Shown: in pieces, positions 63,076 through 63,176 of the stretch
How positions within the stretch are numbered: the stretch's first letter is position 1
How the letters are laid out: every line of letters begins with the position of its first letter
Virus record (IMG/VR): IMGVR_UViG_3300002091_000031
Location: 973-64,972 of that record
Length of the DNA: 64,000 nt
Origin: a virus
Direction: 5' to 3' (one strand)
Translations under genes and position numbers: made by a program
Notes under the pieces: generated by a model
What the model was told of the DNA's origin: nothing
The model's database searches: none
Seen by the model: the letters and a program-made list of their open reading frames with translations, nothing else

Positions 63076-63176
63076 ACGTAAATGACCGAGTGGTCGAAGG
63101 TGGTAGGCTCCAACCCTACTGAGATATATAGCATTTATGTTAGGTCTCCACATAGGTTCAAATCCTATTTTACGTG
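63076..63176 (+). tRNA. Class II (long variable arm) tRNA with anticodon CCA
   Basis: ACGTAAA/TTTACGT, G73; D arm ACC-GAGTGGTCGAA-GGT; GTAGG-CT-CCA-AC-CCTAC; 32-nt variable region. Confidence 0.8.

What the first reader, a model, noticed from the sequence alone, without database searches (positions are those of the whole stretch)
63076..63176. Class II tRNA body carrying a Trp (CCA) anticodon: a candidate mistranslating or dual-identity tRNA
It has a Ser/Leu-type D arm, a 32-nt variable region (GAGA/TCTC-closed stem) and G73, which are the established SerRS determinants, together with anticodon CCA and A1-U72, which are TrpRS determinants. It lies 10 nt after a normal tRNA-Trp with similar ends. 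If serylated it would insert Ser at UGG codons. If tryptophanylated it is a structurally armoured Trp tRNA.
Basis: partly seen in the sequence, partly recalled or inferred. Interest (0 to 1): 0.75.

Follow-up and report, generated by a model that had tools for sequence, protein, structure and literature searches.

The report
Phage tryptophan tRNA with long arm
This is a real phage tRNA gene that reads the tryptophan codon but has the extra hairpin arm normally seen only in serine, leucine and tyrosine tRNAs; it belongs to a widespread phage family that most likely still carries tryptophan, not serine.

Summary
Window 63076-63176 (+) is a 101-nt tRNA (Rfam RF00005, 53.3 bits) with anticodon CCA, a Ser/Tyr-type D arm, a 32-nt variable arm, A1-U72 and G73. 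It lies 9 nt after a normal tRNA-Trp.

The mistranslation reading is not supported. I found about 14 distinct class-II-bodied tRNA(CCA) genes in viral contigs, and 14 of 20 stem pairs show compensatory changes. All of them have U72 and G73, with A1 or G1. None has the G1-C72/G2-C71 seen in 24 and 22 of 28 Ser tRNAs from the same loci.

Their acceptor ends match those of the normal tRNA-Trp in the same phage. In two near-complete phage genomes (206 kb and 344 kb) the long-armed form is the only Trp tRNA. Cultured Caulobacter and Brevundimonas phages carry such genes, annotated simply as tRNA-Trp.

Long arms also occur on His, Asn, Ile, Lys, Cys and Met tRNAs of these phages. Their discriminator bases fit their own amino acids.

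A sibling genome with identical flanks has an unrelated 82-nt long-armed CCA tRNA in the same slot.

Most likely this is a Trp-charged UGG decoder. The purpose of the arm is unknown; protection from tRNA-cutting defences is my guess. Charging with Ser is not excluded.

Earlier reports of this scan found the same design on other phage DNA. I found no paper describing it.

The parts
63076..63176 (+). Whole long-armed tRNA(CCA), 101 nt including G73; no encoded CCA end
   Evidence: RF00005 53.3 bits, E 6.7e-10; five-arm cloverleaf as minimum-energy fold
63076..63082 (+). Acceptor stem 5' strand (ACGTAAA), pairing with 63169-63175; A1-U72, C2-G71, G3-C70
   Evidence: Sequence. The first three pairs are the same as in the normal tRNA-Trp at 62995-63066. 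Compensatory change at 7:66 in L029 and L009
63085..63101 (+). Class II type D arm: 3-bp stem (ACC/GGT), 11-nt loop with A14, G15, G18, G19, A21; C11-G24
   Evidence: Sequence; D stem and D loop conserved in 16 family members
63103..63119 (+). Anticodon arm: 5-bp stem, loop CUCCAAC, anticodon CCA at 63110-63112
   Evidence: CCA is invariant in the orthologues, while L029 has two double compensatory changes in the stem
63120..63151 (+). 32-nt variable region: 1 unpaired base, a 28-nt two-helix hairpin (10 pairs, 3x1 internal loop, 4-nt end loop), then 3 unpaired bases ending in C48
   Evidence: Fold. Same arm in L007, L008 and L029, where the G-to-A change at 63131 turns G.U into A-U. Shorter hairpins at the same place in other family members
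63152..63168 (+). T arm (ATAGG / TTCAAAT / CCTAT)
   Evidence: differs at 2 of 17 bases from the T arm of the neighbouring normal tRNA-Trp
63176..63176 (+). Discriminator G73
   Evidence: G73 in all family members
62995..63066 (+). Neighbouring normal-length tRNA-Trp(CCA), 9 nt upstream; partner isoacceptor with the same acceptor end
   Evidence: ARAGORN; RF00005 61.3 bits

Best explanation
It is a working phage tRNA gene for the tryptophan codon UGG, a member of a widespread phage family of tRNA-Trp built on a class II (long variable arm) body.

Proposed steps:
1. It is transcribed with the neighbouring tRNAs and trimmed, and the host CCA-adding enzyme adds the CCA end, because none is encoded (inferred).
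2. It folds into an L shape with a class II core: 3-bp D stem, G15:C48, and a variable hairpin pointing away from the body. The secondary structure is shown; the 3D arrangement is inferred.
3. The host TrpRS charges it through C34-C35-A36, G73 and A1-U72. The elements are shown to be present; charging is inferred.
4. It decodes UGG alongside the normal phage and host tRNA-Trp (inferred).

Why the arm is there is not known. My best guess is that it makes the phage tRNA a poor substrate for an activity that cuts or depletes ordinary tRNA-Trp, either a host defence nuclease or the phage's own attack on host tRNA. The replacement of the whole gene body by an unrelated long-armed CCA tRNA in a sibling genome fits such an arms race.
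For: 1. It is a real tRNA, and the core tertiary nucleotides are intact.
2. Selection acts on the fold. Among 16 family sequences, 14 of 20 stem pairs keep pairing through changes on both sides. The close orthologues L007, L008 and L029 keep CCA and the arm while stems change compensatorily.
3. The acceptor end follows Trp rules, not Ser rules. Long-armed CCA tRNAs have U72 and G73 in 12 of 12 ARAGORN calls plus the 4 window-type genes, with A1 or G1. Normal tRNA-Trp genes of the same loci have U72 and G73 in 6 of 6. Ser tRNAs of the same loci have G1-C72 in 24 of 28 and G2-C71 in 22 of 28. PMC9976931 names G73, the anticodon and pair 1:72 as the bacterial Trp identity elements. It calls G1-C72 and G2-C71 conserved in bacterial tRNA-Ser, and C2-G71 an antideterminant against E. 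coli SerRS.
4. Within a phage, the long and normal Trp tRNAs share their ends: ACG/CGU in the window, GUA/UAU in L001/L003, AC/GU in L020.
5. In G003 (206,638 nt, CheckV 100% complete, 19 tRNAs) and G001 (344,746 nt, 94% complete, 34 tRNAs) the long-armed gene is the only Trp tRNA.
6. Long arms also sit on His, Asn, Ile, Lys, Cys, Met, Val, Thr and Pro tRNAs of these clusters. Their discriminators mostly fit their own identity (His C73 with G-1, Cys U73, Ile/Val/Met/Pro A73) rather than a uniform G73.
7. Cultured phages CcrColossus and Bajun carry 86- and 88-nt versions annotated as tRNA-Trp.
8. The phage uses the standard code, and two conserved Trp positions in its ribonucleotide reductase are TGG codons.
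9. Published engineering shows that hairpins placed in the variable arm can leave a tRNA active in translation (PMC7590224 abstract).
10. Phage tRNAs are known to escape tRNA-cutting defences (PMC10264068, PMC11555353).
Against: - No aminoacylation, expression or processing data exist for this gene.
- The body carries three elements that SerRS uses: a long arm, G73 and C11-G24. The review says serine identity rests mainly on the arm.
- The 32-nt arm of the window lineage is the longest in the family (13-21 nt in the others by ARAGORN's count).
- The loop has C38 where most relatives have A38.
- The gene sits among other odd tRNA-like RNAs that probably do not decode.
- The related phage L024 lacks the gene at this position, so it is dispensable.
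- The protective role of the arm has no direct support here.
Confidence: 0.6

Rival explanations
1. Dual-identity or mistranslating tRNA: host SerRS charges it, alone or in competition with TrpRS, through the long arm and G73, so that some UGG codons receive Ser.
For: Long stem-loop arm, G73, C11-G24 and a Ser/Tyr-type D loop. Serine identity depends mainly on the arm and not on the anticodon (PMC9976931). Natural class II tRNAs with non-Ser, non-Leu anticodons exist: allo-tRNAs (PMC5389517) and nematode nev-tRNAs (PMC3333845).
Against: A1-U72 and C2-G71 stand where bacterial tRNA-Ser has G1-C72 and G2-C71; C2-G71 is an antideterminant in E. coli. U72 is kept in every family member and the acceptor end tracks the phage's normal tRNA-Trp. 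Family members are the only Trp tRNA in two near-complete genomes. Three unpaired bases follow the arm, where the Ser tRNAs of these loci that I read by eye have one. T-stem pair 51:63 is G.U in 10 of 12 family members against G-C in 18 of 28 Ser tRNAs. TGG encodes conserved Trp in the phage's own proteins.
Confidence: 0.12
2. A tRNA-shaped RNA that does not work in translation. It could be a decoy that soaks up a tRNA-Trp-directed nuclease or sensor, or a partner of the phage's Ro60-like protein.
For: It lies in a cluster with other non-standard tRNA-like RNAs: a 145-nt Asp-like element, a tRNA-like with a 6-nt anticodon loop, and a 149-nt Gln-like element. A Ro60-like gene lies 10 kb upstream. 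The 32-nt arm is oversized. A normal tRNA-Trp stands next to it, so decoding capacity is already provided. The slot holds an unrelated allele in a sibling genome.
Against: Features that matter only for charging and decoding are kept: G73, pair 1:72, a 7-nt loop with U33 and A37, CCA. The family supplies the sole Trp tRNA in complete phages.
Confidence: 0.15
3. A decaying duplicate (pseudogene) of a tRNA that picked up an insertion.
For: ARAGORN default does not call it. No CCA end is encoded. It is absent from L024.
Against: All stems pair perfectly and the invariant nucleotides are intact. There are compensatory changes among orthologues. The family is conserved across very different phages.
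Confidence: 0.05
4. The extra segment is an intervening sequence removed after transcription, leaving an ordinary class I tRNA-Trp.
For: None beyond its length. Identical flanks with a changed middle in a sibling genome could suggest mobility.
Against: The D arm is of the class II type that goes with a long arm. Relatives have short tetraloop hairpins at the same site. The sibling allele replaces the whole tRNA body, not the insert. I know of no bacterial splicing system for 20-30-nt inserts in the variable region (my own knowledge).
Confidence: 0.03

Closest known systems
Ordinary bacterial and phage class I tRNA-Trp(CCA), including the neighbour at 62995-63066
   Same: Anticodon CCA, G73, A1-U72, C2-G71, G3-C70, and a nearly identical T arm. 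It probably uses the same synthetase and reads the same codon.
   Different: A 32-nt variable hairpin instead of a 3- to 5-nt loop. A 3-bp D stem with an 11-nt Ser/Tyr-type loop instead of a 4-bp stem with a 7-nt loop. C38 instead of A38.
Long-armed tRNA-Trp genes of cultured phages (Caulobacter phage CcrColossus JX100810.1 59240-59325; Brevundimonas phage Bajun ON529858.1 133321-133408), annotated only as 'tRNA-Trp'
   Same: Class II D arm, CCA anticodon, U72, G73 and a variable hairpin followed by three unpaired bases.
   Different: Their arms are 14-16 nt with GNRA tetraloops and their CCA end is encoded. The window's arm is twice as long and composite.
Bacterial tRNA-Ser (class II)
   Same: D-arm type, C11-G24, long variable arm, G73.
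   Different: The anticodon is not a Ser anticodon. A1-U72 and C2-G71 replace G1-C72 and G2-C71. Three unpaired bases follow the arm. Pair 51:63 is A-U here (G.U in most of the family) instead of G-C.
allo-tRNAs (Mukai et al., PMC5389517)
   Same: tRNA-Ser/Sec-like bodies with long arms that carry non-serine anticodons; some are found in phage tRNA clusters.
   Different: allo-tRNAs are defined by an 8/4 or 9/3 acceptor/T split and a long D stem with a tetraloop. This gene is 7/5 with a 3-bp D stem. Tested allo-tRNAs inserted Ser, Ala or Cys according to their identity elements. Here the identity elements point to Trp.
Nematode nev-tRNAs (Hamashima et al., PMC3333845)
   Same: Class II tRNAs whose anticodon belongs to a class I amino acid.
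   Different: They are eukaryotic. By my recollection of that paper they are charged with Leu according to the body. Here the acceptor end has been remodelled towards the amino acid of the anticodon.
Phage tRNAs that escape tRNA-cutting defences (PMC10264068; T5 tRNA-Tyr against Retron-Eco7/PtuAB, PMC11555353)
   Same: Phage-encoded isoacceptors that differ from host tRNAs in ways that could block a nuclease. This is the model for my guess about the arm.
   Different: The published cases involve anticodon-loop changes or simple resupply, not an added arm. No nuclease is identified here.

Membership tests
tRNA (Rfam RF00005) | Cloverleaf scoring above the curated gathering score of 29 bits | tested here: met
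   53.3 bits, model positions 1-71 of 71
Class II (long variable arm) tRNA architecture | Variable region over 10 nt forming a stem-loop | tested here: met
   32 nt with 10 pairs; hairpins at the same site in 16 relatives
Class II (long variable arm) tRNA architecture | 3-bp D stem with enlarged D loop, plus G15 and C48 for the Levitt pair | tested here: met
   ACC/GGT stem, 11-nt loop, G15 present, variable region ends in C in all family members
Bacterial tRNA-Trp identity set (PMC9976931) | Anticodon C34 C35 A36 | tested here: met
   63110-63112; invariant in the family
Bacterial tRNA-Trp identity set (PMC9976931) | Discriminator G73 | tested here: met
   63176; all family members
Bacterial tRNA-Trp identity set (PMC9976931) | First acceptor pair A1-U72 | tested here: met
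   A1-U72 here. Family: A-U in 11, G.U in 4, never G-C
Bacterial tRNA-Trp identity set (PMC9976931) | Aminoacylation by TrpRS | not testable with these tools
   Needs a biochemical assay
Bacterial tRNA-Ser identity set (PMC9976931) | Long variable arm and G73 | tested here: met
Bacterial tRNA-Ser identity set (PMC9976931) | G1-C72 and G2-C71 (conserved in most bacterial tRNA-Ser) | tested here: not met
   A1-U72 and C2-G71 here. Ser tRNAs of the same phage loci: G1-C72 in 24 of 28, G2-C71 in 22 of 28
allo-tRNA (PMC5389517) | 8/4 or 9/3 split of the 12-bp acceptor/T helix, with a long D stem and tetraloop | tested here: not met
   7-bp acceptor, 5-bp T stem, 3-bp D stem
tRNA-Sec (Rfam RF01852) | UCA anticodon and 13-bp acceptor/T helix | tested here: not met
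   Anticodon CCA, 7/5 split. RF00005 is the reported match of the clan. Only the L151 allele leans to RF01852, at 27.5 bits, below the gathering score of 47

The most novel reading that the evidence does not exclude
The tRNA has a deliberate double identity. The Ser-type body lets SerRS compete with TrpRS, so that during infection a fraction of UGG codons is read as Ser. The rapid allele turnover at this slot would then tune that ratio.
Probability: 0.1. Interest if true: 0.9.

Novelty: new variant of a known kind. Interest (0 to 1): 0.55.

Why it matters
Textbooks and the reviews I read reserve the long variable arm in bacteria for Leu, Ser, Tyr and Sec tRNAs. Here it is on a tRNA with a full tryptophan identity set. 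The design recurs in many unrelated phages, sometimes as their only Trp tRNA, and also on other class I tRNAs.

If these tRNAs are charged and used as predicted, then TrpRS, EF-Tu and the ribosome accept a class II body for Trp. That is useful for tRNA engineering.

Phages would also have a general reason to add arms to their tRNAs. This is testable in cultured systems such as Caulobacter with CcrColossus, and it could reveal a new layer of the conflict over tRNAs between phages and bacterial defences.

For annotation: default ARAGORN misses this gene, so the largest-armed members are probably under-counted.

Tried and rejected
I rejected this because Rfam and all relatives place CCA in a normal 7-nt loop.
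- Expression: no RNA holder was listed among the public runs, so nothing can be said about transcription, processing or splicing.
- The flank-pattern scan of viral contigs found nothing. The metagenome scan then found L150 and L151.
- Origin of the body: global alignment of family members against all other tRNAs of the loci gave mixed nearest neighbours (Ser, long-armed His, Cys, normal Trp). Whether the family arose from a Ser/Tyr tRNA or from a Trp tRNA that gained an arm stays open.
- A phage-encoded TrpRS/TyrRS-type enzyme (PF00579) was not found in five large contigs that carry family members. Three of those contigs are incomplete.
- The class II D loop plus CCA pattern in cellular genomes:
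Only one tRNA-shaped hit came out, L094, with a Ser-type acceptor end.
  - The pattern was not found in 400 sampled genomes of the phylum of a Cyclobacteriaceae MAG.
  - This is a sample and a narrow pattern, not proof of absence.
- Relatives cannot be drawn for a virus record, so the host's own tRNA-Trp was not examined.
- A PDB look-up of the DnaB-like helicase for more Trp-codon checks found nothing at the threshold used.
- Sigma-70-type promoter matches near the gene were not used. The best one puts its -10 box inside the normal tRNA-Trp.

Full report
**What is there**

Window 63076-63176 on the + strand is a tRNA. cmscan against Rfam aligns it end to end with RF00005 at 53.3 bits (E 6.7e-10, gathering score 29) and places about 29 extra bases in the variable region.

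Read directly from the sequence, it has:
- a seven-pair acceptor stem (63076-63082 with 63169-63175) that starts A1-U72, C2-G71, G3-C70
- U8
- a 3-bp D stem with an 11-nt loop of the Ser/Tyr type, including A14, G15, G18, G19 and A21
- a 5-bp anticodon stem with loop CUCCAAC and anticodon CCA at 63110-63112
- a 32-nt variable region (63120-63151)
- a standard T arm
- G73 at 63176, followed by CAA, so the CCA end is not encoded

ViennaRNA gives a five-arm cloverleaf as the minimum-energy and centroid structure. The variable arm forms 10 pairs in two helices with a 3x1 internal loop.

A normal 72-nt tRNA-Trp(CCA) ends 9 nt upstream.

ARAGORN with default settings does not report the gene. With introns allowed it forces an Arg(CCT) call with an 8-nt intron. 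I treat that as an artefact of the arm length.

**Setting**

The record is a 65.5-kb piece of a phage found in freshwater metagenomes. It has a DnaB-like helicase, ribonucleotide reductase, an SbcC-like protein, a UvsX-like recombinase, DnaJ, ClpP and a Ro60-like protein. The recombinase's only matches among deposited phages are Flavobacterium phages, at 36% identity.

Reading frames are consistent with the standard code. Stop codons are TAA 47, TAG 4, TGA 1, and TGG makes up 0.85% of codons. Two Trp residues of the reductase align with Trp in a solved homologue.

The tRNA sits in a cluster that runs from 61229 past the window's end. The cluster holds several other irregular tRNAs.

**It is a family, and it is under selection**

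I scanned IMG/VR for a Ser/Tyr-type D loop followed at the right distance by CUCCAA. After removing coding-sequence chance hits, this returned about a dozen distinct class-II-bodied tRNA(CCA) genes, all inside phage tRNA clusters.

BLAST against related loci added the orthologues of the window gene in L008 and L029.

In an alignment of 16 such genes, RNAalifold recovers the cloverleaf. Fourteen of 20 pairs have sequences in which both sides changed and pairing is kept.

Among the close orthologues (L007, L008, L029):
- the 32-nt arm is kept almost letter for letter
- one of its two differences turns a predicted G.U pair into A-U
- CCA is invariant
- L029 has two double compensatory changes in the anticodon stem and one in the acceptor stem

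In more distant members the arm is 13-21 nt by ARAGORN's count, usually a 3- to 6-bp stem capped by a tetraloop. The hairpin is conserved; its sequence and length are not. This is not a pseudogene.

**Serine or tryptophan?**

The review of tRNA identity (PMC9976931, read) makes these points:
- In bacteria the Trp determinants are the discriminator G73, the anticodon and the first acceptor pair.
- C2-G71 acts as an antideterminant against E. coli SerRS.
- It also says that serine identity rests mainly on the arm, which is why the question is real.

| tRNA group in these phage loci | pair 1:72 | pair 2:71 | N73 |
|---|---|---|---|
| Ser (28 distinct) | G-C in 24 | G-C in 22 | G in 20 |
| normal Trp (6 distinct) | A-U in 5, G.U in 1 | C-G in 5 | G in 6 |
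| long-armed CCA (12 distinct) | A-U in 8, G.U in 4, never G-C | C-G in 5, G-C in 4, U-A in 3 | G in 12 |

The four window-type genes add A-U with G73.

Where a phage has both forms, their acceptor ends agree: ACG...CGU-G for both in the window, GUA...UAU-G for both in L001/L003, and AC...GU-G for both in L020. This is what one expects if one enzyme, the host TrpRS, reads both.

Two further differences from the Ser tRNAs of the same loci point the same way:
- Three unpaired bases follow the arm in the window gene and in about half the family. The Ser tRNAs I read by eye have one.
- T-stem pair 51:63 is G.U in 10 of 12 family members (A-U in the window gene), against G-C in 18 of 28 Ser tRNAs. 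From my own knowledge of EF-Tu tuning by the T stem, which I did not check here, a weak 51:63 pair suits a tightly binding amino acid such as Trp.

**Whole-genome evidence**

I fetched two near-complete phage genomes that carry family members and ran ARAGORN on them:
- G003 (206,638 nt, CheckV 100% complete) has 19 tRNAs for 17 amino acids. Its only Trp tRNA is the 87-nt long-armed one.
- G001 (344,746 nt, 94% complete) has 34 tRNAs. Its only Trp tRNA is the 92-nt long-armed one.

A phage with a one-per-amino-acid tRNA set that omitted Trp and added a Ser-inserting UGG reader is much less likely than a phage whose Trp tRNA simply has an arm.

No TrpRS/TyrRS-type gene was found in five large contigs with family members, so the host enzyme must do the charging.

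Deposited genomes of cultured phages have the same design, annotated plainly as tRNA-Trp:
- CcrColossus: 86 nt, A1-U72, C2-G71, G73, a GCAA-capped arm
- Bajun: 88 nt, G1.U72, a GAAA-capped arm

**The arm is a general phage habit**

In the same clusters ARAGORN finds tRNAs with stem-loop or enlarged variable regions for Ile, Lys, Cys, Thr, Met, Pro, His, Val, Asn and Arg, often next to a normal-length copy with the same anticodon.

Their discriminators mostly follow their own identity rules, as far as I know them:
- C73 with G-1 for His
- U73 for Cys
- A73 for Ile, Val, Met and Pro
- G73 for one Asn

Lys and another Asn have U73. A set made for SerRS would be expected to share G73.

The window's own contig has such a His tRNA just past the window's end, with the same D loop as the Trp gene and a 20-nt variable region.

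So the arm is not a serine flag. It is something phages add to many isoacceptors.

**Allele turnover at this slot**

I laid public DNA contigs on 62980-63350. In two runs of two studies, a contig was identical to the window on both flanks (62980-63077 and 63174-63350, no differences), but 77 other letters replaced the 96 bases between them.

A metagenome scan with the flanks as pattern retrieved this form as L151, from a 63.6-kb contig that is 95-98% identical over the surrounding 3 kb.

The replacement is an unrelated 82-nt tRNA with:
- A1-U72, C2-G71, A3-U70 and G73
- loop UUCCAAC, so the anticodon is again CCA
- a 17-nt arm with a GCAA loop
- an unusual long D stem

It scores best against the tRNA-Sec model, at 27.5 bits, below that family's threshold.

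The relative L024 has no gene at this position.

So the slot behind the normal tRNA-Trp holds a non-standard, long-armed CCA tRNA whose body can be exchanged wholesale. The anticodon, the acceptor end and the presence of an arm persist.

**Mechanism and confidence**

I conclude that the gene encodes a UGG-decoding tRNA charged with Trp by the host TrpRS (confidence about 0.6 for the whole chain).

- Shown: the fold, the identity elements, the selection on them, and the family's role as sole Trp tRNA elsewhere.
- Inferred: transcription, CCA addition, charging and use on the ribosome.

Published work on aptamer-tagged tRNAs shows that hairpins in the variable arm can be compatible with translation (PMC7590224).

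The reason for the arm is open. Phage tRNAs are known to counter tRNA-cutting defences (PMC10264068, PMC11555353). Some bacterial nucleases cut in or near the variable loop (abstracts of PMC13096335 and PMC13273310). An added arm that spoils recognition by a nuclease is therefore my preferred guess, and the allele turnover fits it, but nothing here tests it.

Rivals:
- partial or full charging with Ser (0.12)
- a non-translating decoy or protein-binding tRNA-like RNA (0.15), suggested by the odd neighbours and the oversized arm of this lineage
- a pseudogene (0.05)
- removal of the arm after transcription (0.03)

**Comparison with what is known**

It works like an ordinary tRNA-Trp and passes every sequence test of the bacterial Trp identity set. 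It has the architecture of a class II tRNA. It fails the acceptor-stem part of the bacterial Ser set.

It is not an allo-tRNA (7/5 rather than 8/4 or 9/3; PMC5389517) and not a tRNA-Sec.

The nearest published parallels for a class I anticodon on a class II body are allo-tRNAs and nematode nev-tRNAs (PMC3333845). In those, the body decides the amino acid. Here the acceptor end has been remodelled to match the anticodon.

I found no mention of a long-armed tRNA-Trp in four full-text searches or in the three papers I read for it: PMC5389517, PMC7609411 and PMC9976931. That is a limited library, not proof that the design is unpublished.

Earlier reports of this scan describe the same design on other phage DNA, including a Caulobacter phage. 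I reached the family and the Trp reading before seeing them. I used one of them only as a lead to the cultured phages, which I then checked myself.

**Verdict**

- The mistranslation headline is not supported; the tryptophan branch is favoured.
- The gene is a new variant of a known kind: a class II-bodied tRNA-Trp, here with the longest arm in the family and with a swappable slot.
- It is moderately interesting in itself. As part of a general, undescribed phage practice of adding arms to class I tRNAs it is more interesting.

Noticed in passing
own contig, 99-189 nt beyond the window end (window-style coordinates 64099-64189; C1:65071-65161): A 91-nt tRNA-His(GTG) with G-1 and C73. It has the same class II D loop as the Trp gene and a 20-nt variable region. 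A normal tRNA-His is at 63576-63649. Orthologues are in L008/L026, L022, L023, L024, L025 and L029.
   Followed up: partly
L151:3296-3377 (JGI24891J29808_1000203): A sibling genome with identical flanks carries an unrelated 82-nt long-armed tRNA(CCA) in the slot of the window gene. It has a long D stem, and its best Rfam score is to tRNA-Sec (27.5 bits, below threshold).
   Followed up: partly
window 62995-63066: The normal tRNA-Trp has a C27.U43 mismatch, so its anticodon stem has only 4 pairs. L024's copy has the same. A 2026 paper (PMC13092985) links 4-bp anticodon stems in tRNA-Trp(CCA) to reading of UGA. TGA ends only 1 of 52 long frames in this contig.
   Followed up: no
window 63480-63566: A class II tRNA-like gene whose anticodon loop has only 6 bases (GCGAAA between CCCCU and AGGGG). 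ARAGORN cannot name an anticodon. ARAGORN calls similar genes in L026 and L007 tRNA-Ser, with CGA and TGA anticodons.
   Followed up: no
window 63941-64000 and on to 64088 in the contig: A 149-nt element with good acceptor and T arms and a class II D arm, but a large insertion around a UUG anticodon-like loop. ARAGORN models it as Gln with a 56-nt intron.
   Followed up: no
window 63847-63934: ARAGORN draws tRNA-Ser(GGA) with an eighth acceptor pair and a 4-bp T stem, the 8/4 form described for phage tRNA-Ser in PMC5389517.
   Followed up: no
L001, L004, L005, L006, L008, L009, L014, L015, L019, L022-L025, L029 (coordinates): Stem-loop or enlarged variable regions on tRNAs for Ile, Lys, Cys, Thr, Met, Pro, Val, Asn and Arg in phage tRNA clusters, often beside a normal-length copy with the same anticodon.
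   Followed up: partly
L094:2919-3010 (Planctomycetaceae MAG CAZNSB010000377.1): A class II tRNA with anticodon CCA but a textbook Ser acceptor end (GGAG..., G1-C72, G2-C71, G73, encoded CCA). It looks like a tRNA-Ser whose anticodon changed, so it is a better candidate for Ser at UGG than the phage family.
   Followed up: no
L005:2283-2355, L020:7394-7465, L023:5619-5690, L024:1848-1919: 72-73-nt tRNAs with a CUA (amber-reading) anticodon in phages related to, or sharing tRNA types with, this one. The copies in L023 and L020 resemble the window's normal tRNA-Trp in BLAST.
   Followed up: no
window 61303-61370: A second, weaker tRNA-like match with a CAT anticodon (36.5 bits, with mismatches) directly after tRNA-Met at 61229-61301.
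   Followed up: no
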